Origin: Thermoplasmata archaeon | GTDB lineage: Archaea > Thermoplasmatota > Thermoplasmata > Lutacidiplasmatales > UBA184 | NCBI GenBank assembly: GCA_021802125.1 | Contig: JAKAAX010000006.1 | Span: 7,633 to 71,632, forward strand | DNA length: 64,000 nt | Direction: 5' to 3' | Shown: piece after piece, positions 28,849 to 48,556 of the stretch | How the letters are laid out: every line of letters begins with the position of its first letter | Position numbering within the stretch: the stretch's first letter is position 1 | Notes under the pieces: model-generated | What the model was told of the DNA's origin: nothing | What the model saw: only the letters and a program-made list of their open reading frames with translations | Databases searched by the model: none | Position numbers and translations under genes: made by a program

Positions 28849-28911
28849 GTTCTCCCGCTCTGGTTCGATCTTCGGTGGTTCGTTCTGGGAGGCCCTGCTC
28901 CGGGGAGCTCC

Positions 28912-29112
28912 TCACTCGATGCTGATCGCCCCGACGGGGCAGGCACGGACGCAGATATTGCAGCGCGTGCAGACCTCTTCGTCGAAGCCGATGCGCCACT
29001 CGTCAAGGTAGATGCAGTTGAGGGGGCAGATGCCGACACAGGCACCGCACGAGACGCAGATCTCGCCCTGAGACTCGATGTGCAGGTCCTTCTTGCTCGG
29101 CACGGGGTGCAC
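28912..29112 (-). CDS. 2x[4Fe-4S] ferredoxin
   Basis: 66 aa with two clusters: CVSCGACVGICP and CTRCNICVRACP. It is co-oriented with the GGR gene, 63 nt upstream of it, with no intervening TATA. Confidence 0.85.
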   Translation of the reverse strand: MHPVPSKKDLHIESQGEICVSCGACVGICPLNCIYLDEWRIGFDEEVCTRCNICVRACPVGAISIE

Positions 29113-29140
29113 CAGAGGAGGGGTTTGCTCGCGACCTGGG

Positions 29141-29148
29141 TTTATTAA
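29141..29148 (-). promoter_or_regulatory. TATA box (TTAATAAA on the minus strand) for the ferredoxin-GGR unit
   Basis: An AT-rich island lies 29-36 nt upstream of the ferredoxin start at 29112 and overlaps the trxB stop codon. Confidence 0.5.
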
Positions 29149-30194
29149 CCTTTTGCTTCGCTGGCCACGGCGCTCTTGGCCCTAGAAATGCTGCCGTCGG
29201 AGGCGCCGTGCTCGGGCACGGTTGCGGGGCTCCCGGCCCCCTCCTCCGCAGGTCCTTCAAGGCCCTCTTCCGCGAGCCATCGTTCCGTGTCAATCGCGGC
29301 CATGCAGCCCATCCCCGCCGCGGTCACCGCCTGACGGTAGCGGTGGTCTTGGACGTCCCCCGCGGCGAAGAGGCCGGGGACCGTCGTCCGCGTGTGTTCC
29401 GTGGTCTTGAGGTACCCCGTCGCATCGAGCTCCAACATGCCGCGGAAAAGCGCGGTCGTCGGCTCGTGACCGATCGCGACGAAGACCCCTCCGCAGGGTA
29501 CAACCCGCACCTCACCGGTTCGGGTGTCCCGGACCCGGACGCCCGTGACGCTGCCCTCCCCAAGGACCTCCTCGATGGCCGAGTTCCAGAGGAAATGGAT
29601 CTTCGGGTTCTTCCGCGCCCGCTCGGACATGATCCGGCTCGCGCGAAGGGTGTCCCGGCGGTGCACCACCGTGACCTTGCTCGCGAACTTGGTGAGGAAG
29701 GTCGCCTCCTCCATCGCGGTGTCCCCGCCGCCGGCCACGATGAGCTCCTTGCCCTTGAAGAAGAACCCGTCGCAGGTCGCGCAGGCCGAGACGCCGTGGC
29801 CCCGGAGCTTCTCCTCGCCCGGGACGTTCAGCCACTTGGCCTGGGCCCCGGTGGCGACGATGACCGCGTCGGCGACGATCTCGGTCCCTCCGGCGGTGAA
29901 GAGGTGGAACGGGCGTTTCGTCACGTCCAGGCGGCTCACGTTGTCGTCCAGGATGCGCGTGCCGAACCGCTCGGCCTGCTTGCGGAAGAGGTCGATGAGG
30001 TCCGGGCCCTGAATCCCTTCCGGGAACCCGGGGTAGTTCTCGACCTCGTTGGTGATCATGAGCTGCCCGCCCGCCGGCACCCCGCCGATGACGATGGGGC
30101 GGAGGTTCGCCCGGGCGGTGTAGAGCGCGGCGGTGAGCCCCGCCGGACCGCTCCCCAGGATGGCGACGCGCGTGTGCATGGCTGAGGGCTTCAT
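29145..30194 (-). CDS. trxB: thioredoxin-disulfide reductase
   Basis: VAILGSGPAGLTAA, the redox-active CATCDG, GGGDTAMEEA and GLFAAGDV are present. A roughly 45-aa C-terminal extension follows. Confidence 0.9.
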   Translation of the reverse strand: MKPSAMHTRVAILGSGPAGLTAALYTARANLRPIVIGGVPAGGQLMITNEVENYPGFPEGIQGPDLIDLFRKQAERFGTRILDDNVSRLDVTKRPFHLFTAGGTEIVADAVIVATGAQAKWLNVPGEEKLRGHGVSACATCDGFFFKGKELIVAGGGDTAMEEATFLTKFASKVTVVHRRDTLRASRIMSERARKNPKIHFLWNSAIEEVLGEGSVTGVRVRDTRTGEVRVVPCGGVFVAIGHEPTTALFRGMLELDATGYLKTTEHTRTTVPGLFAAGDVQDHRYRQAVTAAGMGCMAAIDTERWLAEEGLEGPAEEGAGSPATVPEHGASDGSISRAKSAVASEAKG

Positions 30195-30862
30195 GGGTCT
30201 CGTGCTTCCTTCCGGTCGTGGCGGCCCTTCGACGCGGGGCGAGGTCCTCCCACGCCGCGCGGTCTACGAGCAGGGCCGTTCGAGGGTCTATCTAGAACCC
30301 GGGAAGGGGACATAACGAGTCCACCCCCCTGCGAAGGTCTCGCGTACTCGCTCCTCCAGAAGACCAGCGGCAGCTCCTCCTTCCCCTCCTCCATCGCCAC
30401 CACCTGCCCGAGGAAGAGGCGGTGGGTGGACCGGGTCACCGTCTGGACGACCTTGCACTCGAAGCTCCCGAGGCTCCCGTCAAGGAGAGGGCTTCCGAGG
30501 GGCCCCCGATGGAAGCGCACCCCCTCGAACTTCTCGGAGGAGGGACGACGCGAGGCAAAGCGCTCCGACAAGGAGAGCTGACGCGCGGACAGGAGGTTCA
30601 CCCCGAACCTGTGGGAAGCCTCGACGAGGGGCGTCGTGTCCGCCTTCGCGTTCAGCGCGACCAGGACCGTCGGCGGCTCCAAGCTCACCGAGAGGAAGGC
30701 GTTCACGGTCATTCCTGCGTCACGTCCGCGGTGGCTCGCCGTCACGACGGTGACGCCGGTGGCGAACCTTCCCATGACGGATCGGAACGTCTCCGGGGAG
30801 ATGCCCGAAGGCGGGGACGACGTCCGGGAGGAGGAACGGGCCTTTGAGGGAGGAGATGCCAT
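30191..30862 (-). CDS. flavin reductase-like (FMN-binding split-barrel, HpaC/RutF-type) protein
   Basis: FRSVMGRFATGVTVVT....GMTVNAFLSVSLEPPTVLVAL...HRFGVNLL is present. Its stop overlaps the trxB ATG (ATGA). The start at 30862 lies 4 nt after the permease stop. Confidence 0.8.
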   Translation of the reverse strand: MASPPSKARSSSRTSSPPSGISPETFRSVMGRFATGVTVVTASHRGRDAGMTVNAFLSVSLEPPTVLVALNAKADTTPLVEASHRFGVNLLSARQLSLSERFASRRPSSEKFEGVRFHRGPLGSPLLDGSLGSFECKVVQTVTRSTHRLFLGQVVAMEEGKEELPLVFWRSEYARPSQGGGLVMSPSRVLDRPSNGPARRPRGVGGPRPASKGRHDRKEARDP

Positions 30863-30866
30863 GGGT

Positions 30867-32087
30867 TCACTCCTCACGCCAGCGGAAGACGAGCACGGCC
30901 GCGACGAACGCGACCGCGGCCATGACCGAGACGATCCCCAGGTCGATGAGCGCATGGGCGACGTCGGAGAACACGCTCACGGACTCGATGCCATCGATGA
31001 CATAGTAGAGCGGCCAGACCTTCGCGTAGGGCTGGAGCCAGCCGGGCATCACCGAGACGGGGATGAAAGACCCGGAGAGGAACATCATCGGGAAGGTGAC
31101 CAGGTTCCCGATGATCCCTGCCGTCTCCGCGCGCTTGGAGACCGTGCCGATGAGCATGCCCAGGGAGACGAAGAGGAGCGGGCCGACCAGGAGGAAGGGG
31201 ATGAGGAGCGGACCCACGATCACGTGGGCCCCGTAGGCCAGGATCCCCGTCGCGAAGAGGATCGCGGCGGCGAGGAAGGTGAGGAGCCAGTTGAACAGGA
31301 TCTTGGAGAGGAGCCACTCCCCCTTCGTGAGCGGGGTCAGGGAGAGGGCCTTGAACAGCTTCTCTTTCTTGTATTCCGAGGTGACGTTCACCATCGAGAA
31401 CATCGGGGTCATCAGGATCGCGAATCCGATGAGGCCCGGGATCTCGAAGTCGATGGTCTTCGGGGTGAAGGAGAGGCTGCCCACGGGGACCGCCTTCGCG
31501 AGATAGGCGACGGGAGCCCCCTTGAAGTTCTGGAGCGCAAGTTGCACGGCTCCCGAAACGATGGCGGCCGAGGTCGAGTCGAAGGGGTTGTCGTAGAACT
31601 GCAGCGCGACGGGGACCCCTCTCCCCCCGTGGGTGAGATTCCACACCTGCTCGCCGAATCCCGCGGGGATGACGATCCCGTTCGACTCGGAGTGTTGAGA
31701 GAGGTAGGTCCCGAGCGGGCCCGCCGACGCGGACACGTTGTGGATCGTGACGAGCCCGGTCTCCTCCACGTAATGGTAGAAGGCGAGCGTCGTCGCGTTC
31801 TGCCCATCCAGGTTCTGGATGTAGAGGGGAACGGCGGAGGGGGCCGAGGAACCGCTGAAGATGGCCCCGAAGAGGAGGACCAGGATGACGGGGAAGAGCA
31901 GGGAGAAGAAGAGGGCCTCCGGGTTCCGCATGTAGGCCCGGGTGTAGAGGACGAAGTCCGCCCAGACATGCGAAGGCCGGAGGAAGCTCCTCCTTCGTGC
32001 GGCTCCCTTCGCGCGCGAGCCGTGGGCCGGGGAGGACGGGAGGGACGGGGCCGAAGGGTCGGAGGAGGGGTCGGAGGGCAGCGTCAC
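30867..32087 (-). CDS. ABC-2 type transporter permease (copy 2)
   Basis: It is colinear with copy 1. GTG 32087 overlaps the ATPase stop (GTGA). Confidence 0.85.
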   Translation of the reverse strand: MTLPSDPSSDPSAPSLPSSPAHGSRAKGAARRRSFLRPSHVWADFVLYTRAYMRNPEALFFSLLFPVILVLLFGAIFSGSSAPSAVPLYIQNLDGQNATTLAFYHYVEETGLVTIHNVSASAGPLGTYLSQHSESNGIVIPAGFGEQVWNLTHGGRGVPVALQFYDNPFDSTSAAIVSGAVQLALQNFKGAPVAYLAKAVPVGSLSFTPKTIDFEIPGLIGFAILMTPMFSMVNVTSEYKKEKLFKALSLTPLTKGEWLLSKILFNWLLTFLAAAILFATGILAYGAHVIVGPLLIPFLLVGPLLFVSLGMLIGTVSKRAETAGIIGNLVTFPMMFLSGSFIPVSVMPGWLQPYAKVWPLYYVIDGIESVSVFSDVAHALIDLGIVSVMAAVAFVAAVLVFRWREE

Positions 32088-33007
32088 GCGCGCACCTCTC
32101 CGCCCTCTTCCATCTCTCCCACGAGCGTGATGAAGACCTCCTCGAGCGTGTCGCGCTGGGTGCTGATGTCCGGCCAGACCAACCCGGAGGCGGCGATCGC
32201 CTGCAGGGCGTCGATCAAGACCTGCTTCTGGTGGAGCGGGACCTCGACCTGGTTCCCTTTCACTTCCGAGGAGAGCCCCGGGACCCGCTGAAGGACCTTC
32301 AGGAGCTCGGGGGTCGCCTCCAGGACGATGCGGGGGCCCCGACCGTACTTCGCGATCAGCTCGGCGGGAGATCCCTCCGTCACGATCTTCCCGTGGTGGA
32401 TGATCGCGACCTGGTCGGCGAGGTTCTCGGCCTCCTCCAGATAATGCGTCGTGAGGAAGATCGTCCGCCCCTCCTTACGGAGCTCCCGGAGCAGCTCCCA
32501 GACCGCCCGGCGCGCCTGCGGGTCGAGCCCGGTCGTGGGTTCGTCCAAGAAGACGAGCTCGGGGTCGTTGACGAGCGCGAGCGCGATCCCGAGCTTCTGC
32601 TTCTGTCCTCCGGAAAGCTTGTCGAAGGTGTCGTTCGCCTTTTCTTCCAGCAGGACGCGCCTCAGCAGCGCCGGGGCATCCACCTGCACGTCGAACAGGC
32701 GCCCGTAGTACTGGACCGCCTCCAGAGGGGTGACCTTGTCGAAGAAGCGGAACCCTTGGGGCATCACCCCGACGCGTCGGTGGACCTCCCCCGCGTCGTG
32801 CCAGGGGTCCAGCCCGAGCACCCGGAGCGTCCCGTGGGTGGCGCGACGCAGCCCCTCCAGGATCTCCACCGTGGTGGTCTTTCCTGCCCCGTTCGGTCCG
32901 AGGAAGGAGTACACCTTACCGGTCGGTACGGAGAACGATATCCCGTCCACGGCCCGGAGCTTCCCATACTCCTTGACCAGGCCGTCGACGGAGATGACCG
33001 CGTCCAT
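32084..33007 (-). CDS. ABC transporter ATP-binding protein (copy 2)
   Basis: GPNGAGKTT, LSGGQKQKL, VFLDEPTTGLD and TTHYLEE are present. The start is ATG 33007 (MDAVISVDGL). Confidence 0.9.
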   Translation of the reverse strand: MDAVISVDGLVKEYGKLRAVDGISFSVPTGKVYSFLGPNGAGKTTTVEILEGLRRATHGTLRVLGLDPWHDAGEVHRRVGVMPQGFRFFDKVTPLEAVQYYGRLFDVQVDAPALLRRVLLEEKANDTFDKLSGGQKQKLGIALALVNDPELVFLDEPTTGLDPQARRAVWELLRELRKEGRTIFLTTHYLEEAENLADQVAIIHHGKIVTEGSPAELIAKYGRGPRIVLEATPELLKVLQRVPGLSSEVKGNQVEVPLHQKQVLIDALQAIAASGLVWPDISTQRDTLEEVFITLVGEMEEGGEVRA

Positions 33008-33032
33008 CGGTCGTCGGCGACGCGTGTTCCCG

Positions 33033-33038
33033 TATAAT
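33033..33038 (-). promoter_or_regulatory. TATA box (ATTATA on the minus strand) for the ABC-2 / flavin reductase / trxB operon
   Basis: It lies 26-31 nt upstream of ATG 33007, which is leaderless spacing. Confidence 0.5.
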
Positions 33039-33250
33039 GTCTCATCAAAAGGCGGCCCGGTCACGTCCTGGCCCGTGCGCGCTCCTTCGGGCGCGCGGAC
33101 CCGGCCCGCTGGGCTCCGGCACCCCTTGCGTGCAAGGTCCGGCCCACGGGGGACCCCGACCCTCCCTCCTCCTCCCTCCTCCTTCCGTGGGCCCCTGGCC
33201 CGGGCCCACGGGTCCCTCGCGGAGAGAAGCGTTCCCCGTCGCCCGCAGTC

Positions 33251-33256
33251 CTTAAC
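33251..33256 (+). promoter_or_regulatory. TATA-like box (CTTAAC) for the flavoprotein-glpD-lipid kinase operon
   Basis: It lies 27-32 nt upstream of GTG 33283. Confidence 0.4.
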
Positions 33257-33282: not shown

Positions 33283-35142
33283 GTGACCGCCCCGACGGCA
33301 TCGTCCCCCCCACCCCCCGCATCGCCCAAACCCAAGGCCGGGGAGCCGACGAGCTCCAACGCATCCTCCCCGCCGGCCCGGGCTGCTGCGAGCGGGGGCG
33401 GAGGCCGGGTGCCCCATCCGTCCCCGCACTTCTCCGGAGCCCGTTGGTGGGCATGGGGGAACATCACGCACCGGTTCCCGCCGAGCCGCTCGCAACGGCT
33501 GAAGGAGTTCCTCCGGCACGAGCTCGGCGTTCCGTCGCTGGGTGCGGGCGGTCCCGGGGCGGACCTCGAGACCCTCTCGATCCCTCCCGGGCGGCTCGAC
33601 GCGGCCGAGGTGCAGGCGATCCGGGCACTGCTCCCGACGGGGGCGGTCAGCGACGAACGCGAGGAGCGGCTGCTCCACTCCTTCGGTCGGTCCTACGTGG
33701 ACGTGGTCATCGCGCGAAGGGGACATCTGCACCAGCTCACGGACCTCGTCGTTCATCCGGCCTCCGTGCAGGAGGTGGAGGATGTCCTCCGGTACGCGCA
33801 CACCCACGACCTCGCCGTCGTCCCGTGGGGCGGTGGCACCAGCGTTGTCGGCGGGGTCGACCCCGAGCGCGGGGGGCACCGGGGGGTACTGACGCTCTCG
33901 CTCCAGCGGCTGATGGACCCGCTCGGGCTCGACGAGATGAGCCGCCTCGCCAGGTTCCAGTGCGGCATCCCCGGCCCGGACCTCGAGAAGTACCTCAACG
34001 ATCGGAAGTTCACGCTCGGGCACTTCCCCCAGTCCTTCGAGTTCTCGACCCTGGGCGGCTGGATCGCGACGCGATCCTCCGGCCAGGCATCGTCGCGGTA
34101 TGGGGAGATCGTCGAACGCCTGCGGGGCGCGACGGTGGTCACTCCCGTCGGAACGTACCGATGGGAGCGCGGGGTCACGGAGTCCTCCGGCCCGGACCCG
34201 TCACTGCTCTTCCCCGGTTCGGAAGGGACGCTCGGGATCTTCGTCGAAGCGACCCTCGCCGTGGACCCGGTTCCCGCGCGAAGGTCCTACCGGCTCGCGA
34301 TCTTCCCTGACTGGGAGAGCGGGATCGACGCCGCGCGCGACCTTTCCCAGGAGCCTCCTCACCCCGCCGTCCTCCGGATCGCCGACGCGCAGGAGACCCT
34401 CCTTACGCTCGAGGGGAGGCCCCCCGCCGAGACCACGGGGGAACGCGTCCGAGCGAGGATCGAGACCGGGTATCTCGGGCTGCGCAAGCTCGAGGAGGGG
34501 TCCATGTGCCTCGCCGTCATCGGCTACGAGGGCACGGAGCGGGAGGTCCGTCACGGCGACGAGCGCCGTCGGGAGGTCCTCCGCGCCCACGGTGGAACGG
34601 ACATCGGTTCGAAGGCGGGGGACCTCTGGCTCAAGGAACGCTTCCTGCTGCCCTACCTCCGGGACGACCTCCTGGAGGACGGCTGGCTGGTCGAGACCCT
34701 GGAGACCGGGGCCGCTTGGAGCGAGATCAAAGGCCTCGCGAGCCAGGTCCACGATGCGCTCCAGAGCACGGCCCGGCGGGGGAAGTTCCCCATCCTCACC
34801 GCGGCTCACCTCTCCCACACCTCGTCCACCGGGACCGGGCTCTACTTCACCATCATCGCGCCGCAGGACCCCCAGGACCCGGTCGGCCAGTGGCTCTCTT
34901 TGAAGGAGGCCGCGACCGAGACCCTGCTGCGAGCCGGCGGAGTGCTGTCCCACCATCACGGGGTCGGCAAGATGCACCGGCCGTGGGTGGGGGGGTATCG
35001 GAAGTCCTTGGCCGGGCTCACGCTCCACGCGGCCAAAAGCTCGTTCGACCCGCTGGGGATCCTGAACCCCGGCAAGACGCTCCCCGAGCCCCGCGTCGAC
35101 CCGGCCTCCTCCCGGCCGAAGGGCGGAGCGGCCGGGCGGTAG
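33283..35142 (+). CDS. FAD-linked oxidase, alkyldihydroxyacetonephosphate-synthase (AGPS)-like
   Basis: The N-terminal RWWAWGN resembles the AGPS WNGWG motif. The FAD_binding_4 core is VVPWGGGTSVVGG...GIPGPDLEKYL...TLGGWIATRSSG...GSEGTLG. The C-terminal HHHGVG is present. Confidence 0.8.
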   Translation: MTAPTASSPPPPASPKPKAGEPTSSNASSPPARAAASGGGGRVPHPSPHFSGARWWAWGNITHRFPPSRSQRLKEFLRHELGVPSLGAGGPGADLETLSIPPGRLDAAEVQAIRALLPTGAVSDEREERLLHSFGRSYVDVVIARRGHLHQLTDLVVHPASVQEVEDVLRYAHTHDLAVVPWGGGTSVVGGVDPERGGHRGVLTLSLQRLMDPLGLDEMSRLARFQCGIPGPDLEKYLNDRKFTLGHFPQSFEFSTLGGWIATRSSGQASSRYGEIVERLRGATVVTPVGTYRWERGVTESSGPDPSLLFPGSEGTLGIFVEATLAVDPVPARRSYRLAIFPDWESGIDAARDLSQEPPHPAVLRIADAQETLLTLEGRPPAETTGERVRARIETGYLGLRKLEEGSMCLAVIGYEGTEREVRHGDERRREVLRAHGGTDIGSKAGDLWLKERFLLPYLRDDLLEDGWLVETLETGAAWSEIKGLASQVHDALQSTARRGKFPILTAAHLSHTSSTGTGLYFTIIAPQDPQDPVGQWLSLKEAATETLLRAGGVLSHHHGVGKMHRPWVGGYRKSLAGLTLHAAKSSFDPLGILNPGKTLPEPRVDPASSRPKGGAAGR

Positions 35143-35157
35143 GGGGCCCCCGCACCC

Positions 35158-36816
35158 GTGTCCGTCGCGTCAACCCCGGCCTCCCCGTCCGCCCGCCCTA
35201 CGGAAGCCAGGACCCGCGACGCGCCCCACCGCTCTCTGGGGACCCGGACCGAAAGGTGGAGGGCCCTCCTCGACGGCCCCTTCGACCTGCTCGTCGTGGG
35301 CGGGGGGATCACCGGCGCGGGGATCGCATCGGAAGCGACCCGGCGGGGGGCCCGCGTCGCGCTCGTGGAACGGGAGGACTTCGGCGGGGGGACCTCCGGC
35401 GCAACGTCGAAGATGCTGCACGGAGGCTTGCGCTACCTCCAGCAGCGGAAGATCCGGCTCGTGCGGGAGGCGCTCCTCGAGCGCGGACGGCTCGTGCGCG
35501 CGCTCGGGCCGGACCGGGTCCAGCGAACGGAGTTCCTCCTCCCGCTCGACGGGGGGCTCGGCCACCGTCTCTCCCTCCGCTTCGGGACCTGGCTCTACGA
35601 GCGGCTCTCCGGTCGCCTCTCGCTGGGCCCCCGCCGCCGGCTCTCCCCGAGCGAGGTCACCTCCCGTGTCCCGTTCCTCGCGATGGAGGGGGTCCACGGG
35701 GGAGTGCTCTACTTCGAAGGCGTGGTGGATGACACGCTCCTGACGCTCGTCCGGGTCGGTCAGGCCGTCGAGCGGGGGGCGGTCGCGGTCAACCACGTCG
35801 AGGCCGTCGCGCCGCTCCTCGAGAAGGGGGAGCTCCGGGGCGTTTCCGTCCGCGACCGTCTCACCGACGCCACGGGGGAGGTCCGGGCGAAGCAGGTGAT
35901 CAACGCCGCGGGGGTCTGGTCCACCTCGTGGGCGGGAGGGGATCGCTCTCCCGCCCTCCGTCCCTCCAAGGGGGTGCACCTGGTCTTCCGTCGCGAGCGG
36001 CTGCCTCTGGAAGTGGCGGTCGTGCTGGGCGCGCCGGAGGGGCGGTGGGTCTTCGCCCTTCCCTACGGCCCTCTCTCGATCGTCGGCACCACGGACACGG
36101 AGGCCCCGCCAGACCCGGACCATGTTCGGGCGGAGCCGGACGACGTCCGCTACCTTCTCGAGGTCGCGCGGCGGCACTTCCCGTCGCTCCATCTGGGGCC
36201 CAAGGACGTGGTCGACGTCTATGCCGGCCTGAGACCTCTGCTGGCCGGCCCCGCCGCCCGGACGAACGACCTCTCGCGCGAGGACGTCGTCCATCGGGAC
36301 GCGAGCGGTCTCCTCACCGTCGTGGGCGGGAAACTGACGACGCATCGGGCCATGGCGGAAAGGGCGCTCAAGGTCTCGGGCATCGGCGACGTCCGGTCAG
36401 GGACGAACACACCCACATCCCCTGCCCGAGGGCCCCTCCCCACCACCTCCGAGTGGAACTGGTGGGCCTTCCCGCCTCGCTGGGAGCGGACCCCCTGCCC
36501 CGGTGCGACGCTCACCTCGGAGGTCCTTCGGGCCCCGCGGGAGAGCTGGAGCGCGTCCCTGTCCCCCTGGGTCAGAGCCTCCGTGCACGTGGCCGGCGCG
36601 GGGACCCTCGTGGACGTCATCGACCGTCGTCTGCACACCTTGCAGCGGTTGGACCCCGCGTTCCCGGAGCTCGTGAGCGAGGTCGCGCGGGAGGTCCAGG
36701 GCCTGCTGGGCTGGACCGACGCGGAACGCGACCGCCAGCGAGAGGATTATCTGGCGAGAGCTCGCTTTGAGACCCAAGCGGTCCTGGCGGCCCGCGGAGG
36801 TTCCGAGTCCCAGTGA
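35158..36816 (+). CDS. glpD: FAD-dependent glycerol-3-phosphate dehydrogenase (GlpA/GlpD family)
   Basis: DLLVVGGGITGAGIASEA, FGGGTSGATSKMLHGGLRYL and KGVHLVF are present, with the C-terminal alpha-helical domain. It starts 15 nt after the upstream stop. Confidence 0.85.
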   Translation: MSVASTPASPSARPTEARTRDAPHRSLGTRTERWRALLDGPFDLLVVGGGITGAGIASEATRRGARVALVEREDFGGGTSGATSKMLHGGLRYLQQRKIRLVREALLERGRLVRALGPDRVQRTEFLLPLDGGLGHRLSLRFGTWLYERLSGRLSLGPRRRLSPSEVTSRVPFLAMEGVHGGVLYFEGVVDDTLLTLVRVGQAVERGAVAVNHVEAVAPLLEKGELRGVSVRDRLTDATGEVRAKQVINAAGVWSTSWAGGDRSPALRPSKGVHLVFRRERLPLEVAVVLGAPEGRWVFALPYGPLSIVGTTDTEAPPDPDHVRAEPDDVRYLLEVARRHFPSLHLGPKDVVDVYAGLRPLLAGPAARTNDLSREDVVHRDASGLLTVVGGKLTTHRAMAERALKVSGIGDVRSGTNTPTSPARGPLPTTSEWNWWAFPPRWERTPCPGATLTSEVLRAPRESWSASLSPWVRASVHVAGAGTLVDVIDRRLHTLQRLDPAFPELVSEVAREVQGLLGWTDAERDRQREDYLARARFETQAVLAARGGSESQ

Positions 36817-37925
36817 GCGCTTCCAGCCCCACCTCCCCCGCTTCCACCTCTTCCACCACTTCCACCTCTTCCAGCTCCTCCCCCTCTCCACCCGCTCCCC
36901 CCTCCGCGCTCTCCGTCTCAGCCTCAGCCTCGGGCACGGCCTCGGGCTCCGGGCGCGGGCCCTCCGTGCCGCCCACGATCTCCCGGTCCACCCCCCAACG
37001 CGTGTACGTCGTCCTCAACCCGTGGGCGGGTGGGCGGAAGGGCGAGCAGCGCTGGGCGGAGCTCGAGGTCCCGATCAAGACGCGCTTTCCGGTCCTCACG
37101 GTCCTGAGGACCACGCGTCCCCAGGAGGAGGCTGCCCTGGGGCGGCGCGCGGTTCGCGAGGGCGCGGACCTGGTCATCGCCGCCGGAGGCGACGGGACGC
37201 TCAGCGGGGTGGTCGACGGCGTCCTCTCCGAGCCTCCCATGACGCACGCCACTCCCCCGGCCCTCGCCGTGCTGCCCATCGGGAGCGGGAGCGACTTCGC
37301 GCGCGGGCTCGGACTTCCCAGGGACCCCGCCCAGGTGGTCCCGCTCATCGCCGCGGGCGCGCCGCGCGAGCTCGATGTCGGGCGTCTCACGTTCCTGGGT
37401 GAGACCCCACCGCGCGTGCGCTACTTCGTCAACCAGTCGTACGTGGGCTTCGGGGCAAAGGTCGTGCGGCGCGTCAACCAGAAGAAAGGCGGGGCCGGCC
37501 GGGAAGGCGCCTACTCGCGCGCCGTCCTCCCCGAGCTCTTCCACCACCACCCGCTGCCGGTGCACATGCAAGGTGCGGGAGCTCCGAAGGACACCTACGG
37601 GCTCAGCAATCTCGTGGTGGCCATCGGGAGGTACTCGGGCGGCGGCATGCTCTCCTCCCCAAACTCGGACCCCACCGACGGTCTCTTCGACATGATCTCC
37701 GTCGGACCCGTCTCGCGTCTGCGCCTGCTCTCCAACCTGTCCAAGTTCCGGTCCGGCAAGCACCTCGCGCTCAAGAACATCCTCTCCTGGCGGGGCATCC
37801 AGCTCCAGGTGGAGGCCCAGGGAGGGACCACGGCTGAGCAGATCGTCGAGGCGGACGGGGACGTCGTGGGGAACCTGCCGGTCCTCTACGAGGTCGTCCC
37901 CAAGGCGCTCACCTTCTGGGGGTGA
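36813..37925 (+). CDS. diacylglycerol-kinase-family lipid kinase (YegS/BmrU/DagK type) with Ser/Thr/Pro-rich N-terminus
   Basis: VVLNPWAGG and the catalytic loop VIAAGGDGTLSGVVDGV are present. GTG 36813 overlaps the glpD stop (GTGA). An alternative start at GTG 37002 would drop the low-complexity tail. Confidence 0.8.
   Translation: MSASSPTSPASTSSTTSTSSSSSPSPPAPPSALSVSASASGTASGSGRGPSVPPTISRSTPQRVYVVLNPWAGGRKGEQRWAELEVPIKTRFPVLTVLRTTRPQEEAALGRRAVREGADLVIAAGGDGTLSGVVDGVLSEPPMTHATPPALAVLPIGSGSDFARGLGLPRDPAQVVPLIAAGAPRELDVGRLTFLGETPPRVRYFVNQSYVGFGAKVVRRVNQKKGGAGREGAYSRAVLPELFHHHPLPVHMQGAGAPKDTYGLSNLVVAIGRYSGGGMLSSPNSDPTDGLFDMISVGPVSRLRLLSNLSKFRSGKHLALKNILSWRGIQLQVEAQGGTTAEQIVEADGDVVGNLPVLYEVVPKALTFWG
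36841..36876 (+). repeat. 2 x 18-nt tandem repeat (CTTCCACCTCTTCCA core) inside a pyrimidine-rich tract of roughly 100 nt
   Basis: CTTCCACCTCTTCCA occurs at 36841-36855 and 36859-36873. The plus strand is strongly C/T-biased from about 36818 to 36935. Confidence 0.7.
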
Positions 37926-38920: not shown

Positions 38921-39889
38921 TCACTCGAGGCCGCAACGGACCGAGGAGGTGCCCTCCGAGCGGCTCCCCCACGCGATGTTCGAGGTGTTCCGAGCCACGG
39001 CGAAGCGCCCTTTGCGGTCCACGGCCACGATGCCCACCGAGTCGTCCGGCATCTGGGCGATCGTCCGCTCGGCGGCGGCCTGGACGCCCTCGTGCCGGAG
39101 CCGATAGCGCTCGGCGATCGAGCGCGTCAGCATGTGTCGGATGATCACTTCCCCGATCCCGGTGGCAGAGATGCCCAGGTCCGGGTCGGCGTAGGTGCCG
39201 CAGCCGACGAGGGAGCTGTCCGAGACCCGTCCCTCCATCTTGAGGAAGATCCCTCCCGTGGAGGTCGCGGCGGCGAGGCGACCCTTGGCGTCGAGCGCGA
39301 CCGCGCCGACGGTCCCATGCAACAGCTCGGGGTGCTTCCGCACCAGCTTGCGAAGCGGGGTCCACCAGGCCGGGTGTCGCGACGGTCTCCCGTCGGACCA
39401 CCGGCCGCGGTCGCCCTTTCCTTTCTCGAGGTCGCGCCGGAGCTCCAGGTAGAGCTTGCGACGGGCGGGGGTCCCGATGCGCTCCTTCGGGAACCCCATC
39501 GCCTGCGCGAACCGGTCGACCCCCTTGCCGCAGAGGAGAACGTGCGGGGTCTCCTCCATGACCTTCCGAGCGACCGCGATCGCCCGCGGGGTCCACGTGA
39601 GGTTGGAGACCGCCCCGGCCTCCCCGCGGCCGGTCACGATCGCGGCGTCGAGCTCCGCCCGTCCCCGGAGGTTCAGGACAGCCCCGCGACCGCAGTTGAA
39701 CTTCCCGGAGTCCTCCATCCAGCGGACGGCCGCCGTCGCGGCCTCGGTCGCGTCATCGATCTCTCCCCACCCGGCTTCGAGGGCGGAACGGAGGCCCCGG
39801 AGCGCCTCCTCCCCGTGCTCGGGCGCGATGCGACCGGCCCCACCATGGACGATCAGGCGCCGCATGCGGAAGGCCGATTGGAACCCCAA
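38921..39889 (-). CDS. isoaspartyl peptidase / L-asparaginase (plant-type, Ntn hydrolase)
   Basis: IVHGGAG, NCGRGAVL, the autoprocessing site HGTVGAVALD, STGGI, GRVSDSSLVGCGTYAD and SATGIGE are present. The likely start is ATG 39865 (MRRLIVHGGAG). Confidence 0.85.
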   Translation of the reverse strand: MGFQSAFRMRRLIVHGGAGRIAPEHGEEALRGLRSALEAGWGEIDDATEAATAAVRWMEDSGKFNCGRGAVLNLRGRAELDAAIVTGRGEAGAVSNLTWTPRAIAVARKVMEETPHVLLCGKGVDRFAQAMGFPKERIGTPARRKLYLELRRDLEKGKGDRGRWSDGRPSRHPAWWTPLRKLVRKHPELLHGTVGAVALDAKGRLAAATSTGGIFLKMEGRVSDSSLVGCGTYADPDLGISATGIGEVIIRHMLTRSIAERYRLRHEGVQAAAERTIAQMPDDSVGIVAVDRKGRFAVARNTSNIAWGSRSEGTSSVRCGLE

Positions 39890-40785: not shown

Positions 40786-41970
40786 CTAGAGGTACTTCTC
40801 GATGAGGTTCTCGGTCGTGTCGAAGACGATCTTCTGACCGCTGAACGCTTTCTTGTTCATGTAGAACGAGGCCTTCGCCGAGTTCACCGCCGCCACGGGG
40901 AACTGGTCGGAGAGCGGCGCCACGACCATGCAGGTGTCCTGGATGACCTTGGCCCCGGCCTGACGCAGGACCTCCACCGCGGACGCGGTCTCCTGGATCA
41001 CCTGGCGGTTCGAACAGACCCAGAGCTCCGTGCCGGGTTTGAGCTTGCGGCCCTTCTGCTTGACCGCCTTGGCGATCTGGATGAGCTCCCCTTTCGTGCA
41101 GTGGGGGCAGCCGATCGCGACGAGCTGGGGGTTCTCGTCGCATCCCAGGCAGCGCTGGAACTCGCCCACCACCCCCGCGTCCACCTGGATCCGCTCCAGG
41201 CCGCGGACGTCCTGAAGGTGGGCCTCCGGGGTGACGCCCTCGACGTGCATCATCGGCACCGCCCCCCAGGCGGACATCGAGCTGCCGAGCTCCTTCAGTC
41301 CGTCGAGGTCGGGGCGGACGCCGCGGAAGTAGGGGATCTTGCGCCCGAGGAGCTTGCCCAGGTAGGCTCCCAGCACCGTGTAGCGAATGGGGCCCTTGGA
41401 GACGTCCACGTCGACCACGACCTGGGCCCTTCGGCCCTCCTGTCGGTGCAGGCCGTGGTCGGGGGTCTTCCCGAGCACGGCGCTGGCGAGGGCGCTCGGC
41501 GCCCCCTCCCGGTTGGAATAGGCCCCGAGCACGCTGTTCGCGTAGATCACCGCCGAACTCTCCGCCCAGGCGAGGTGCGCTCCCTTCGGGGGGGCGAAGT
41601 CCGTCGTGTAGGGGGTGCAGGTGAACGTCGGCACCGCGCCCATGGTCATGAGGGCCTTCACGATCCGGTCCTGCTTGGACCGGAAGTCGTCGCTCGTCCG
41701 GACGAGCCCGGGCCCTCCCACGTCGTACCCCGCAGGGTTGATCGTCGTGGGGACCGCGAACTTGACCTCCTGGGCCATCTCCTCCAGGAACTCGGTCCCG
41801 GCGGAGCCCATGGTCTTGTAGGAGATGCCGGAGAGCTGCACGGAGTAGATGGGGAGCAGCTTGCGAGCCCCGTACATCTCCCCCAGCGTGACGAGGATCT
41901 TCATGCACTCCTGCTTCCGGGGACCCCCCTCCCCCCGCAGGACCGCCTCCTCCTCGCGCGTGAGCTCCAT
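40786..41970 (-). CDS. aconitase X catalytic (large) subunit / DUF521, phosphomevalonate-dehydratase-like
   Basis: 394 aa starting at ATG 41970 (MELTREEEAVL). IYSVQLSG, TINPAG, FTCTPY, AWAESSAVIYANSVLGA and the Cys-containing GCPHCT are typical of AcnX large subunits. The track ORF extension to 42207 is rejected. Confidence 0.85.
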   Translation of the reverse strand: MELTREEEAVLRGEGGPRKQECMKILVTLGEMYGARKLLPIYSVQLSGISYKTMGSAGTEFLEEMAQEVKFAVPTTINPAGYDVGGPGLVRTSDDFRSKQDRIVKALMTMGAVPTFTCTPYTTDFAPPKGAHLAWAESSAVIYANSVLGAYSNREGAPSALASAVLGKTPDHGLHRQEGRRAQVVVDVDVSKGPIRYTVLGAYLGKLLGRKIPYFRGVRPDLDGLKELGSSMSAWGAVPMMHVEGVTPEAHLQDVRGLERIQVDAGVVGEFQRCLGCDENPQLVAIGCPHCTKGELIQIAKAVKQKGRKLKPGTELWVCSNRQVIQETASAVEVLRQAGAKVIQDTCMVVAPLSDQFPVAAVNSAKASFYMNKKAFSGQKIVFDTTENLIEKYL

Positions 41971-41996
41971 GGGTGCCGTTGGAACGCCTGCCCCGT

Positions 41997-42004
41997 GTAT
42001 TAAG
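41997..42004 (-). promoter_or_regulatory. TATA-like box (CTTAATAC on the minus strand) for the AcnX gene
   Basis: It lies 27-34 nt upstream of ATG 41970. Confidence 0.45.
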
Positions 42005-42103
42005 CCATCCCGGTGCGGTCGGTCTGACGACCTTCGAGGGCGGGGAAGGGTCCTCGGCACCCCCCCCCAGCAAGGCTCTTCTATCCCTCGAGATGCGAAC
42101 CCC

Positions 42104-42155
42104 ACGGCGATGAAGTCCGCCGCAACCGCCGGCCCGCGGCTGATGACTTCTACCT
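42104..42155 (+). promoter_or_regulatory. fluoride riboswitch (crcB RNA motif)
   Basis: ACGGCGAUGAAGUCCGCCGCAACCGCCGGCCCGCGGCUGAUGACUUCUACC is present. P1 is GGCG/CGCC and P3 is CCGC/GCGG. The pseudoknot pairs GAAGUC (42112-17) with GACUUC (42145-50). The conserved GAUG, AACCGCC and CUGAUGA..CUAC blocks are colinear with the crystallised Thermotoga petrophila aptamer. It ends about 50 nt upstream of the crcB start. Confidence 0.85.
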
Positions 42156-42206
42156 CCAAGCGGGCGAAGGACCCCACGAGGGGTCGGTCAGGAGGAGAAG
42201 CCGGCA

Positions 42207-42608
42207 ATGGACGAGACCCAGGCAGGACTGGTAGCCCTAGTGGCGATCGGAGGGGCGATCGGGAGCGTCGCGCGTTACGGCGTGAGCGGGCTCCTGTCGC
42301 GGAGTGATTTCCCCTGGGGCACCTTCGCGGTGAACCTGACGGGGACCTTTCTGCTCTCCTTCCTCTATTTCCTCTCGCTCGAGCGGGGCTTCCAGACGAC
42401 GGACCTCCGAACCTTCCTCTTCGTCGGAGTGTTCGGCGGCTACACGACGTTCTCGACCTTCGGGCTGGAGACGGTCCTCCTCTTCCGGGGAGGGGAGGTG
42501 CCCATGGCCGCCTTGAACATCCTCTTCAACGGCGGGCTCTGTGTGCTCGGGGCCTTCCTCGGGGCGGCCCTGGGGATCTTGCTGGGGGGGAGGGTTCCGT
42601 GGAGCTGA
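42207..42608 (+). CDS. crcB: fluoride ion channel CrcB/FluC
   Basis: GGAIGSVARY, GTFAVNLTGTFLL and GGYTTFSTF are present. An SD-like GGAGGAG lies at 42190-42196. Confidence 0.9.
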   Translation: MDETQAGLVALVAIGGAIGSVARYGVSGLLSRSDFPWGTFAVNLTGTFLLSFLYFLSLERGFQTTDLRTFLFVGVFGGYTTFSTFGLETVLLFRGGEVPMAALNILFNGGLCVLGAFLGAALGILLGGRVPWS

Positions 42609-45860: not shown

Positions 45861-45899
45861 GGGAACTCCCCCGTTTCGGGTCTCGGCGGATGGACCCCC

Positions 45900-48235: not shown

Positions 48236-48556
48236 GCGCCAGGAGGAGGTGGGCAGTTGACGGTACCTAGGCCTCGCAAGGGGTCGGGCGCTGAGGAAAG
48301 TCCCCACTCCGGGAACCAGGGGGGCGGGCGCAAGCCCGCCGGGCGAGAGCCCGAGCCACGGAGCAGACACGACACAGCCGGAGGGTACGAGGAATCGGAA
48401 CAGCCGAGGAGATTCCTTCCGGAAATGTTGAAACGGCCGTCTCCCCCGGAGCAAGCCCGAAGGCCCGGCATGAGCGCGGTTCCGCGACCGGCGAGATGGG
48501 CGCGCAGTCGAATGCTGTCGGAACAGAATGGGGCTTACGACCTCGACCTGGCCCGC
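48236..48556 (+). ncRNA. rnpB: RNase P RNA (archaeal type A-like)
   Basis: CR-I is GAGGAAAGUCC at 48293-48303. CR-V is ACAGAAUGGGGCUUAC at 48522-48537. A UGAAACGGC element lies near 48428. A GNRA-capped P3 candidate lies at 48270-48285. The P1 candidate pairs GCCAGG-AG-GAGGU (48238-48250) with ACCUC-GA-CCUGGC (48540-48552). Ends are accurate to about +/-30 nt. Confidence 0.85.

What the first reader, a model, noticed from the sequence alone, without database searches (positions are those of the whole stretch)
33283..37925. AGPS-like flavoprotein, GlpD and DAG-kinase-family lipid kinase operon in an archaeal genome (arrangement resembling actinobacteria)
Three co-oriented genes have a 15-nt gap and a GTGA overlap, and sit behind one leaderless-type promoter. 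They encode an FAD-linked oxidase with an AGPS-like N-terminal RWWAWG motif, an FAD-dependent sn-glycerol-3-phosphate dehydrogenase (G3P to DHAP) and a DagK/YegS-type lipid kinase. AGPS chemistry forms ether bonds on a DHAP backbone, whereas archaeal lipids are built on G1P. As I recall, Mycobacterium tuberculosis has a similar neighbourhood (glpD1 Rv2249c, flavoproteins Rv2250A/Rv2251, DAG kinase Rv2252); this should be verified. The trio could be a horizontally acquired bacterial-type glycerolipid or ether-lipid module. It lies only about 4 kb from the archaeal GGR/ferredoxin lipid-saturation genes.
Basis: partly seen in the sequence, partly recalled or inferred. Interest (0 to 1): 0.65.

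Follow-up and report, generated by a model that had tools for sequence, protein, structure and literature searches.

The report
Bacterial-type ether-lipid operon in archaeon
An uncultured archaeon carries an old, bacterial-type three-gene operon (an ether-bond-forming AGPS-like flavoenzyme, a glycerol-3-phosphate dehydrogenase and a lipid kinase); the same module is common in bacteria, where nobody has worked out what it makes.

Summary
Three co-oriented genes sit at 33283-37925, separated by a 15-nt gap and a GTGA overlap. They encode an AGPS-like flavoprotein, a GlpD-type dehydrogenase and a YegS/DgkB-type lipid kinase. The window is archaeal (RNase P RNA, GGR-ferredoxin, AcnX).

The flavoprotein is AGPS-like, not a D-lactate or glycolate oxidase. 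It matches solved AGPS at E=5e-90, against 5e-22 for the next family. Its model superposes on AGPS over the full length (TM 0.80-0.86). It keeps the catalytic Tyr, both Arg residues and the HHH loop.

The trio is not a recent insertion. GC content is flat across it, and the same operon occurs in at least seven archaeal (Thermoplasmatota-type) contigs, down to 44% AGPS identity. For all three proteins the archaeal sequences form one clade (bootstrap 50/50, 50/50, 49/50). Their nearest relatives outside the clade are bacterial.

In 47 of 80 bacterial loci the same three genes are clustered. That includes the Mycobacterium Rv2249c-Rv2252 layout and, in Chloroflexi, the identical gene order.

The best reading is an ancient operon transfer from bacteria followed by vertical inheritance. 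The product, probably a DHAP-based alkyl/acyl glycerolipid, is unproven in any organism. No acyltransferase or fatty-alcohol reductase is linked. Linkage to GGR holds only in one subclade.

The parts
33244..33256 (+). Conserved CGCAGTCCTTAAC box. It is a candidate BRE/TATA element about 28-31 nt upstream of the GTG start, consistent with a leaderless or short-leader transcript.
   Evidence: It is conserved with L001 at the same distance from the start, within an otherwise diverged intergenic region. Promoter function is inferred, not tested.
33283..35142 (+). AGPS-like (alkylglycerone-phosphate synthase-like) FAD enzyme, 619 aa. It has a P/S/A-rich N-terminal extension followed by the RWWAWG motif.
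   Evidence: Pfam FAD_binding_4 plus FAD-oxidase_C. PDB matches: 2uuu at 5.2e-90 and 4bby at 1.3e-64, against 5.4e-22 for the best non-AGPS hit. The AlphaFold model has pLDDT 87.5, and the top 37 Foldseek hits are all AGPS with TM 0.74-0.86 over about 568 columns. Conserved catalytic residues: R365, R460, Y521 and H557-H559.
35158..36816 (+). GlpD-type FAD-dependent glycerol-3-phosphate dehydrogenase, 552 aa, with a lineage-specific C-terminal region (no DAO_C domain).
   Evidence: Pfam DAO 4e-51. PDB matches: 3da1 at 1.1e-72 and E. coli GlpD 2qcu at 1.3e-47. Equivalents of E. coli R54, H233, R317 and K354 are conserved in the alignment. NCBIfam PRK12266 scores 257 bits, below the 360-bit cut-off. 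Archaeal-type homologues lack PF16901, whereas the bacterial ones have it.
36813..37925 (+). YegS/Rv2252/DgkB-family lipid kinase, 370 aa from the GTG that overlaps the GlpD stop. The first ~51 residues are S/T/P-rich low complexity, and an alternative in-frame GTG lies at 36966.
   Evidence: Pfam DAGK_cat 1.4e-27 plus YegS_C 7.7e-25. PDB matches: 4wer, DgkB 2qv7 and YegS. A GGDGT motif is present. TIGR00147 scores 108.5 bits against a cut-off of 118.65. The 4-nt start/stop overlap with GlpD is also seen in L001, L002, L006, L007, L088 and L090.

Best explanation
The three genes form one operon. It is the archaeal copy of a conserved prokaryotic module made of an AGPS-like flavoenzyme, GlpD and a YegS-type lipid kinase. 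The module is widespread in Bacteria: Actinomycetota including Mycobacterium, Chloroflexota, Pseudomonadota, Bacteroidota and others.

An ancestor of a Thermoplasmatota-type archaeal clade most likely acquired the whole operon from bacteria long ago. The clade has since inherited it vertically.

Proposed mechanism:
1. GlpD oxidises sn-glycerol-3-phosphate to DHAP (inferred from family membership and conserved residues).
2. The AGPS-like enzyme keeps every residue shown by mutagenesis to be needed for AGPS catalysis. It therefore probably uses oxidised FAD to form a covalent DHAP intermediate from an acyl-DHAP and exchanges the acyl group for an alcohol, giving an alkyl-DHAP (inferred).
3. The lipid kinase phosphorylates a diacyl-, alkylacyl- or monoradyl-glycerol belonging to the same lipid pool (inferred).

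The net effect would be synthesis or remodelling of a minor G3P/DHAP-backbone (bacterial-type) ether or ester glycerolipid alongside the normal G1P isoprenoid lipids.

Shown here: gene identities, operon structure, residue conservation, and the phyletic and syntenic pattern. Not shown: the substrates, the product, and the source of acyl-DHAP and alcohol.

The confidence of 0.5 is for the whole statement. Taken separately, the gene identities and operon are about 0.95, the ancient bacterial origin about 0.75, and the ether/ester glycerolipid biosynthetic role about 0.4.
For: Gene identities rest. AGPS membership rests on sequence, fold and catalytic residues. The residue roles come from the review PMC3509576, which reports that R352, Y508 and R447 of Dictyostelium ADPS are needed for catalysis.

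Operon status rests on the 15-nt gap and the GTGA overlap, and on the same tight arrangement in L001, L002, L006, L007, L088, L090 and L091.

Evidence on bacterial relatives:
- 47 of 80 bacterial AGPS loci carry both GlpD and DagK within 8 kb.
- 39 of these have the mycobacterial layout.
- 4 (Chloroflexia, Chloroflexota, Bacteriovoracaceae, Saprospiraceae) have the identical order AGPS-GlpD-DagK.
- The archaeal sequences are monophyletic for all three proteins: 50/50, 50/50 and 49/50 NJ bootstraps.
- The nearest named hits outside the clade are bacterial: Chloroflexi, Myxococcales, Planctomycetes, Mesorhizobium and Pyrinomonadaceae.

There is no compositional anomaly. Published parallels are P. 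aeruginosa PA3026-PA3023, which its authors predicted to convert glycerol to alkylglycerone phosphate (PMC8151288), and the M. tuberculosis Rv2249c-Rv2252 region (PMC4564863).
Against: - No DHAP acyltransferase, fatty acyl-CoA reductase or acyl/alkyl-DHAP reductase is linked to the trio in the window or in any of 89 loci. Only AGPS, GlpD and DagK recur across phyla, plus a roughly 200-aa gene upstream of AGPS in actinobacteria at the position of the Rv2250c regulator (not annotated here).
- The function of the bacterial module is unproven. The P. aeruginosa deletion had no phenotype.
- Archaea are not known to need fatty alcohols or acyl-DHAP.
- A residue that is Tyr in all 80 bacterial loci and both eukaryotic AGPS sequences (Cavia Y571) is Ser/Thr/Val/Glu/Met/Leu in the archaeal clade.
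- The archaeal GlpD lacks the usual DAO_C domain and scores below the NCBIfam equivalog cut-offs.
- The direction of transfer is inferred from breadth of distribution and unrooted NJ trees, not from a rooted ML reconciliation.
Confidence: 0.5

Rival explanations
1. The module salvages or degrades exogenous glycerolipids rather than making them. The lipid kinase would phosphorylate scavenged diacyl-, monoacyl- or alkyl-glycerols. The backbone would then be released as G3P and oxidised by GlpD to DHAP, for central metabolism or for G1P synthesis. The AGPS-like enzyme would process acyl- or alkyl-DHAP intermediates, by exchange or hydrolysis of the C1 substituent.
For: In P. aeruginosa the homologous operon is co-induced with phospholipase C PlcA and includes an FGGY glycerol-type kinase. 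In L006, L007, L090 and L002 an alpha/beta-hydrolase (Abhydrolase_1/Hydrolase_4) gene lies next to or near the trio. No biosynthetic partners such as an acyltransferase or FAR are linked. The cluster-linked GlpDs are interspersed with bona fide housekeeping GlpD/GlpO enzymes in an NJ tree, which suggests an ordinary G3P substrate.
Against: No lipase or phosphatase is conserved across phyla with the trio. From my own recollection of the literature, not checked here, ether-bond formation by AGPS is regarded as essentially irreversible. The P. aeruginosa mutant grew normally on glycerol. There is no GlpK or GlpF in the window.
Confidence: 0.25
2. The trio is a plain glycerol or G3P catabolic unit. 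The AGPS-like gene would be a generic FAD-linked 2-hydroxyacid (D-lactate or glycolate) oxidase, and the kinase a generic small-molecule kinase.
For: The best NCBIfam hit of ORF1 is GlcD, because the library reported no AGPS family among the hits. GlpD on its own is a catabolic enzyme.
Against: The GlcD score is 111.6 bits against a cut-off of 567.9. AGPS structures match at 5e-90, against 5e-22 to 1e-17 for D-2HGDH, D-LDH and glycolate oxidase. The fold matches AGPS over its full length, including the N-terminal domain, with TMq 0.74-0.86 against 0.66-0.70 for D-LDH. The AGPS catalytic Tyr, Arg residues and HHH loop are conserved. There is no glycerol kinase or facilitator nearby.
Confidence: 0.05
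3. The AGPS-like enzyme works with the neighbouring GGR/ferredoxin/flavin-reductase genes on archaeal isoprenoid lipids. It could, for example, attach an isoprenoid alcohol to DHAP as an alternative route to a GGGP-like ether.
For: AGPS lies next to the Flavin_Reduct / TrxR-like / ferredoxin / GGR block in the window, L001, L002 and L004. Stereochemically, reduction of 1-O-alkyl-DHAP could give either backbone configuration (inference).
Against: The adjacency is absent in L006, L007, L088 and L090, which keep the trio. In L004 the AGPS-like gene that stays beside GGR has lost the catalytic Tyr (to Asn) and one His of the HHH loop, and has also lost GlpD and DagK. The genes are divergently transcribed and, in the window, separated by an ABC transporter. 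The same trio is conserved in bacteria whose loci show no GGR hit.
Confidence: 0.07
4. The trio is a bacterial contaminant or a mis-assembled segment in an archaeal bin, or a very recent transfer.
For: All three proteins have bacterial affinities.
Against: The trio lies in the middle of a 64-kb window that also carries archaeal RNase P RNA, GGR, AcnX and other archaeal-type genes. The same flanking genes occur in independent assemblies L001, L002/L003 and L091. GC content (0.70-0.72) and GC3 match the surroundings. Other archaeal contigs carry the trio next to the thermosome, EF-1alpha/S10 and thermopsin.
Confidence: 0.02

Closest known systems
Pseudomonas aeruginosa PA3026-PA3023 cluster, activated by the AraC-type regulator GliR/PA3027 (Kotecka et al. 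2021, PMC8151288)
   Same: It contains an FAD-binding oxidoreductase predicted to make alkylglycerone phosphate (PA3026), a GlpD homologue (PA3025) and a YegS-type lipid kinase (PA3023), clustered and co-expressed. Its biochemical function is also unproven.
   Different: The Pseudomonas cluster has an extra FGGY carbohydrate/glycerol kinase (PA3024) and a divergent AraC regulator, and it is co-induced with phospholipase C. None of these is present here. I could not retrieve the PA3026 sequence to test orthology directly.
Mycobacterium tuberculosis Rv2249c (glpD1) / Rv2250c (regulator) / Rv2250A-Rv2251 (flavoprotein) / Rv2252 (DAG kinase), and the equivalent actinobacterial loci
   Same: The same three protein families are adjacent (gene table in PMC4564863). 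In 39 actinobacterial loci, AGPS-like and DagK are co-oriented with glpD upstream. TIGR00147 is itself named the 'YegS/Rv2252/BmrU family'.
   Different: In actinobacteria glpD is divergently transcribed and a roughly 200-aa gene sits between it and AGPS, at the position of the Rv2250c regulator. Here the three genes are co-oriented with no regulator. Identities are only 37-43% (AGPS), 31-39% (GlpD) and 26-34% (DagK).
Chloroflexota / Bacteriovoracaceae / Saprospiraceae AGPS-GlpD-DagK loci (L011, L032, L012, L076)
   Same: The gene order and orientation are identical to the window. Chloroflexi are the nearest bacteria by distance for GlpD and DagK.
   Different: The bacterial GlpDs carry the DAO_C domain and the bacterial AGPS proteins keep the Tyr at the Cavia-571 position; the archaeal ones do not. 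These loci are uncharacterised.
Canonical AGPS ether-lipid pathway: eukaryotic peroxisomal FAR/GNPAT/AGPS, and the Myxococcus xanthus MXAN_1674-1676 operon
   Same: The enzyme family, fold and catalytic residues are the same. MXAN_1676 is experimentally implicated in ether-lipid synthesis (bioRxiv 10.1101/2025.10.10.681575).
   Different: In those systems AGPS is partnered with a fatty acyl reductase and a DHAP acyltransferase. Here it is partnered with GlpD and a lipid kinase, and no FAR or acyltransferase is linked. That preprint reports no evidence of the plasmalogen pathway in Archaea.

Membership tests
Alkylglycerone-phosphate synthase (AGPS/ADPS, EC 2.5.1.26) | VAO/PCMH-type FAD-binding domain plus FAD-linked oxidase C-terminal domain | tested here: met
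   PF01565 at 1.1e-31 (residues 154-293) and PF02913 at 3.9e-31 (residues 331-598).
Alkylglycerone-phosphate synthase (AGPS/ADPS, EC 2.5.1.26) | Closer in sequence and fold to AGPS than to D-lactate, glycolate or D-2HG dehydrogenases, including the AGPS-specific N-terminal domain | tested here: met
   phmmer gives 2uuu at 5.2e-90 and 4bby at 1.3e-64, against 3pm9 at 5.4e-22. Foldseek ranks 1-37 are all AGPS, with TMq 0.74-0.86 over about 568 of 575 residues; D-LDH gives TMq 0.66-0.70.
Alkylglycerone-phosphate synthase (AGPS/ADPS, EC 2.5.1.26) | Catalytic residues: Tyr base (Cavia Y578 / Dictyostelium Y508), Arg (Cavia R419 / Dictyostelium R352), Arg (Dictyostelium R447) and the HHH loop (Cavia 615-617) | tested here: met
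   Y521, R365, R460 and H557-H559 align to these positions. The roles of R352, Y508 and R447 come from PMC3509576, and H616/H617 are described as active-site residues in PMC13019191. One nearby conserved Tyr (Cavia Y571) is Ser here.
Alkylglycerone-phosphate synthase (AGPS/ADPS, EC 2.5.1.26) | Catalyses acyl-DHAP + long-chain alcohol -> alkyl-DHAP + fatty acid | not testable with these tools
   This needs an enzyme assay.
Alkylglycerone-phosphate synthase (AGPS/ADPS, EC 2.5.1.26) | Pathway partners supplying the substrates (fatty acyl reductase, DHAP acyltransferase), as in eukaryotes and M. xanthus | tested here: not met
   None is found in the 64-kb window, and none recurs in the 89 loci compared. 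The rest of the genome could not be searched.
GlpD/GlpO-type FAD-dependent sn-glycerol-3-phosphate dehydrogenase | DAO-type FAD domain with the substrate and catalytic residues of E. coli GlpD (R54, H233, R317, K354; roles recalled from Yeh et al. 2008) | tested here: met
   PF01266 at 4e-51. The motifs HGGLRYL, KGVH, GLRPL and GGKLT align to those positions in 2qcu.
GlpD/GlpO-type FAD-dependent sn-glycerol-3-phosphate dehydrogenase | C-terminal alpha-glycerophosphate oxidase domain (PF16901, DAO_C), and a score above the curated equivalog cut-offs | tested here: not met
   There is no PF16901 hit. All ~50 archaeal-type homologue clusters lack it, while the next (bacterial) hits have it. PRK12266 scores 257 bits against a cut-off of 360.
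YegS/Rv2252/BmrU (DgkB-like) soluble lipid kinase family | DAGK catalytic domain with a GGDGT motif, plus the YegS_C beta-sandwich domain | tested here: met
   PF00781 at 1.4e-27 and PF19279 at 7.7e-25. 'AAGGDGTL' is present in the translation. PDB matches: 4wer, 2qv7 and 2bon.
YegS/Rv2252/BmrU (DgkB-like) soluble lipid kinase family | Score above the curated TIGR00147 cut-off | tested here: inconclusive
   The score is 108.5 bits against a cut-off of 118.65. The full ORF scanned includes the low-complexity N-terminal stretch.
Conserved prokaryotic AGPS-like / GlpD / lipid-kinase gene cluster (Rv2249c-Rv2252 type; PA3026-PA3023 type) | The three families are adjacent and their homologues co-occur across taxa | tested here: met
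   The window and seven archaeal loci carry the trio, as do 47 of 80 bacterial loci.
Conserved prokaryotic AGPS-like / GlpD / lipid-kinase gene cluster (Rv2249c-Rv2252 type; PA3026-PA3023 type) | A dedicated adjacent transcription regulator (Rv2250c-type regulator in actinobacteria, AraC/GliR in Pseudomonas) | tested here: not met
   No regulator lies next to the trio in the window. An HTH_5 gene follows DagK in L006, L007 and L090 only.

The most novel reading that the evidence does not exclude
The conserved trio could be a self-sufficient, previously unrecognised route to ether lipids that needs no DHAP acyltransferase. The lipid kinase would make a lyso-phosphatidate from a monoradylglycerol. 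The GlpD paralogue would oxidise its C2 hydroxyl to give acyl-DHAP. The AGPS-like enzyme would then swap the acyl group for an alcohol. In the archaeon the alcohol could be isoprenoid, which would give a DHAP-derived route to archaeal-type monoethers and blur the lipid divide. It would also bear on the recent inference that AGPS was present in LUCA (PMC11383801).
Probability: 0.07. Interest if true: 0.85.

Novelty: new member of a known kind. Interest (0 to 1): 0.5.

Why it matters
AGPS catalyses the only well-understood oxygen-independent, flavin-dependent formation of a glycerol ether bond on a DHAP (G3P-type) backbone. Finding a catalytically intact AGPS in a conserved operon across a whole clade of uncultured Thermoplasmatota-type archaea has three consequences.

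1. These archaea may make or remodel bacterial-type glycerolipids, which bears on the 'lipid divide' debate.
2. It gives a concrete, testable explanation for archaeal AGPS hits that have so far been noted only in passing (PMC11868695). It also gives a reason to treat the reported recovery of AGPS among the ether- and ester-lipid enzymes inferred for LUCA (PMC11383801) with caution, because here operon-level transfer from bacteria is the simpler history.
3. The AGPS/GlpD/lipid-kinase module is one of the more widespread uncharacterised lipid gene clusters in prokaryotes, and it occurs in Mycobacterium and Pseudomonas. Solving it in any organism would annotate thousands of genomes.

Tried and rejected
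1. I first read the HMMER alignment as showing loss of the catalytic Tyr ('SHTS' against 'SHTY'). Renumbering against the Cavia and Dictyostelium chains showed that this position is Cavia Y571. The real catalytic Tyr (Y578/Y508, in the 'LYF' motif) is conserved.
It was useful for bacterial synteny but gave no named archaeal genomes. The archaeal distribution therefore rests on the look-up of encoding contigs.
3. I tried to align the N-terminal RWWAWG region to solved AGPS chains. Only residues after the motif aligned, so the motif's equivalence to the eukaryotic 'KWNGWG' rests on memory.
4. The primary AGPS mechanism paper (Nenci et al. 2012) is not held. Residue roles were taken from a review and a docking paper.
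5. I looked for extra conserved neighbours (acyltransferase, FAR, lipase) by clustering ORFs from 89 loci. Only AGPS, GlpD, DagK, an actinobacterial ~200-aa gene (at the Rv2250c position; not annotated here) and generic ABC ATPases recurred.
6. I considered functional coupling to the GGR/ferredoxin block and rejected it as subclade-specific synteny.
7. I considered that cluster-linked GlpDs might be a specialised lipid-substrate subfamily. In an NJ tree they are interspersed with E. coli GlpD, Bacillus GlpD and Streptococcus GlpO, which argues against that.
8. The ARAGORN 'tRNA-Asp(atc)' at 39767-39859 lies inside the asparaginase gene and is taken as a false positive.

Full report
**Observation.** In this 70% GC window all three have the third-position GC (0.88-0.89) typical of real genes. 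ORF1 ends with TAG at 35140-35142, and 15 nt later GTG 35158 opens ORF2. The GTG at 36813 overlaps the ORF2 stop as GTGA.

Pfam gives FAD_binding_4 plus FAD-oxidase_C for ORF1, DAO for ORF2, and DAGK_cat plus YegS_C for ORF3. The window is archaeal. It carries archaeal RNase P RNA (172.7 bits), a GGR with an adjacent 2x[4Fe-4S] ferredoxin, AcnX, an H+-PPase and an isoleucyl-tRNA synthetase-type class I enzyme.

**Is the flavoprotein really AGPS-like?** Yes.
- Against all PDB sequences, the best matches are Dictyostelium AGPS (2uuu, E=5.2e-90) and guinea-pig AGPS (4bby, 1.3e-64). The best non-AGPS relative reaches only 5.4e-22.
- An AlphaFold model built from 52 homologues (pLDDT 87.5) has AGPS chains as its first 37 Foldseek hits. 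They give TM 0.74-0.86 over about 568 of 575 residues, so the AGPS-specific N-terminal domain is included. D-lactate dehydrogenases follow at TM 0.66-0.70.
- The chain numbering checks against known residues. In a 203-sequence alignment the window protein has R365, R460, Y521 and H557-H559 at the positions of Cavia R419 / Dictyostelium R352, Dictyostelium R447, Cavia Y578 / Dictyostelium Y508, and the HHH loop.
- Mutagenesis shows that R352, Y508 and R447 matter for catalysis, with Y508 as the proposed base (review PMC3509576). H616 and H617 are treated as active-site residues (PMC13019191).

My first impression that the catalytic Tyr was lost was wrong. The substituted position is Cavia Y571. 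That residue is Tyr in all 80 bacterial loci and both eukaryotic enzymes, but Ser/Thr/Val/Glu/Met/Leu in the archaeal clade. The GlcD NCBIfam hit scores 111.6 bits against a 567.9-bit cut-off.

**The other two genes.**
- ORF2 matches solved G3P dehydrogenases and oxidases: 3da1 at 1.1e-72, 2rgh at 2.7e-66 and E. coli GlpD at 1.3e-47. It keeps the HGGLRYL, KGxH, GxRPL and GGKLT motifs that hold E. coli R54, H233, R317 and K354 (the residue roles are from my memory of Yeh et al. 2008).
- ORF2 lacks the usual C-terminal DAO_C domain and falls below the NCBIfam equivalog cut-offs. This is a clade feature. About 50 archaeal-type homologue clusters (43-98% identity) lack PF16901, whereas the next, bacterial, hits all have it.
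- ORF3 is a YegS/Rv2252/DgkB-type soluble lipid kinase with a GGDGT motif. Its first ~51 residues are an S/T/P-rich low-complexity stretch, and an in-frame GTG at 36966 is an alternative start. A 98%-identical protein from another assembly was called at the same 370-aa length.

**Distribution in archaea.** The nearest AGPS homologues form a graded series from 97% down to about 44% identity. Contigs carrying them show the same tight AGPS-GlpD-DagK operon in:
- L001 (76%, 'Euryarchaeota archaeon' GCA_028866665.1);
- L002/L003 (57%);
- L006 (47%);
- L007 (46%; a cluster member is named 'Candidatus Thermoplasmatota archaeon');
- L090 (46%);
- L088 (44%);
- L091, a near-identical strain.

These contigs carry archaeal markers such as the thermosome, EF-1alpha/S10, thermopsin, AcnX and deoxyhypusine synthase. 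GC content across the trio (0.70-0.72) equals that of the surroundings. The trio is therefore old and vertically inherited within a deep clade of uncultured archaea, not a recent island.

One subclade (P0009-P0012, locus L004) keeps only the AGPS-like gene. There the catalytic Tyr has become Asn and HHH has become HHL, so that copy is probably inactive or has a new function.

**Relation to bacteria.** tblastn with the window proteins gave the following:
- 47 loci have both GlpD and DagK within 8 kb of AGPS.
- 39 actinobacterial loci (Mycobacterium, Rhodococcus, Nocardia, Streptomyces, Kitasatospora and others) have a divergent glpD followed by AGPS and DagK.
- 4 loci (Chloroflexia, Chloroflexota, Bacteriovoracaceae, Saprospiraceae) have exactly the window's order.
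- 4 loci have GlpD-DagK-AGPS.
- 9 loci have one partner only.
- 24 loci (mostly Solirubrobacterales) have neither.

A published gene table lists Rv2249c glpD1, Rv2250c regulator, Rv2251 flavoprotein and Rv2252 diacylglycerol kinase (PMC4564863).

NJ trees with 50 bootstraps recover the archaeal sequences as one clade for AGPS (50/50), GlpD (50/50) and DagK (49/50). Chloroflexi are the nearest bacteria for GlpD and DagK. Independent database searches with GlpD and DagK found only bacterial names beyond the archaeal-type clade: Myxococcales, Chloroflexi, Planctomycetes, Mesorhizobium and Pyrinomonadaceae.

The distribution is broad in bacteria and narrow in archaea, the three histories are congruent, and the gene order is shared. 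Together these favour a single ancient operon transfer from bacteria into this archaeal lineage. The direction is an inference, because my trees are unrooted distance trees.

**What does it do?** Clustering of ORFs from 89 loci showed that only AGPS, GlpD and DagK recur across phyla, plus a roughly 200-aa gene upstream of AGPS in actinobacteria (at the position of the Rv2250c regulator; not annotated here) and generic ABC ATPases. No acyltransferase, fatty acyl reductase or lipase is consistently linked.

The module has been noticed in P. aeruginosa as PA3026 (FAD oxidoreductase), PA3025 (GlpD), PA3024 (FGGY kinase) and PA3023 (YegS-type kinase). These genes are strongly induced by GliR together with phospholipase C PlcA. 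The authors predicted conversion of glycerol to alkylglycerone phosphate but found no phenotype for the deletion (PMC8151288). No organism has a proven function for this module.

My best-supported model is as follows. GlpD supplies DHAP from G3P. The catalytically intact AGPS-like enzyme exchanges the acyl group of an acyl-DHAP for an alcohol. The kinase phosphorylates a related di- or monoradylglycerol. The outcome would be a minor bacterial-type (G3P/DHAP-backbone) ether or ester glycerolipid.

The main rival is salvage or catabolism of exogenous glycerolipids. It is supported by the PlcA co-regulation, by nearby alpha/beta-hydrolase genes in several archaeal loci, and by the fact that cluster-linked GlpDs are interspersed with housekeeping GlpD/GlpO in a tree.

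Functional coupling to the GGR/ferredoxin block is unlikely. The adjacency exists only in one subclade (window, L001, L002, L004) and is absent from L006, L007, L088 and L090.

**Promoter.** The divergent ABC ATPase most likely starts at the ATG at 33045, which leaves a 237-nt intergenic region. Within it, CGCAGyCCTTAAC (33244-33256) is conserved with L001 at the same distance from the start, as is the GTG start context. This fits a BRE/TATA element and a leaderless or short-leader mRNA, but it is not proof.

**Comparison with the literature, and novelty.** AGPS homologues in archaeal MAGs have been mentioned only in passing ('surprisingly ... also detected in archaeal MAGs', PMC11868695). A preprint on plasmalogen evolution found no evidence of the pathway in Archaea. 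A LUCA reconstruction listed AGPS among recovered lipid enzymes (PMC11383801). I found no description of the conserved archaeal AGPS-GlpD-kinase operon or of its operon-level relationship to the bacterial clusters.

I classify it as a new (archaeal) member of a known but biochemically uncharacterised prokaryotic gene cluster, with lineage-specific changes: GlpD without DAO_C, a substitution at AGPS position 571, and low-complexity N-terminal extensions.

**Verdict.** Interest is moderate (0.5). The finding is relevant to the lipid divide and to LUCA lipid inference, and it is directly testable by enzymology. The function remains inferred, however, and the cluster type is already known from bacteria.

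Noticed in passing
window 48241-48549 (+): Archaeal RNase P RNA (RF00373, 172.7 bits, E=1.7e-49). This settles that the window is archaeal.
   Followed up: yes
window 42097-42159 (+) and 42207-42608 (+): A fluoride riboswitch (RF01734, 53.3 bits) lies directly upstream of a CrcB fluoride-channel gene in an archaeal genome.
   Followed up: partly
window 27646-30955 (-); also L001, L002, L004: A conserved block of GGR, 2x[4Fe-4S] ferredoxin (28912-29112), TrxR-like Pyr_redox_2 flavoprotein (29145-30194) and Flavin_Reduct (30191-30955). It looks like a dedicated NAD(P)H-to-ferredoxin electron supply for lipid saturation.
   Followed up: partly
L004/L005 10001-11824 (proteins P0009-P0012): An AGPS-like subclade in which the catalytic Tyr is Asn and the HHH loop is HHL. 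It has lost the adjacent GlpD and DagK but stays next to the Flavin_Reduct/GGR block. It is possibly an inactive or neofunctionalised paralogue.
   Followed up: partly
window 33283-33417 and 36813-36965: Both the AGPS-like protein (P/S/A-rich) and the lipid kinase (S/T/P-rich, repetitive TCC/ACC codons) have low-complexity N-terminal extensions. These are shorter or absent in relatives. Their function is unknown, and for the kinase the stretch could be non-coding if translation starts at GTG 36966.
   Followed up: partly
window 51406-63998 (+): Three very large ORFs (about 1795, 1439 and at least 1140 aa) with PKD, Kelch/beta-propeller and He_PIG domains. The first two overlap by about 530 nt in different frames, which suggests a frameshift or over-extended ORFs. 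They are probably surface proteins.
   Followed up: no
window 40786-42207 (-) and 43734-45899 (-): AcnX (Pfam PF04412, aconitase X family) and a membrane H+-pyrophosphatase. They are syntenic with L002 and L004.
   Followed up: no
window 39767-39859 (-): ARAGORN calls a 93-nt tRNA-Asp with anticodon ATC inside the asparaginase gene (38921-39889). It is almost certainly a false positive.
   Followed up: partly
L006 12193-12858, L007 12233-12874, L090 12180-12830: In the more distant archaeal lineages an HTH_5 (ArsR-type) regulator gene immediately follows the lipid kinase, and an alpha/beta-hydrolase gene precedes AGPS on the opposite strand. Neither is present next to the trio in the window.
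   Followed up: no
window 30867-33045 (-): An ABC-2 type transporter (ATPase plus permease) is transcribed divergently from the AGPS gene. It is conserved in that position in L001 and L002 but not in L004.
   Followed up: no
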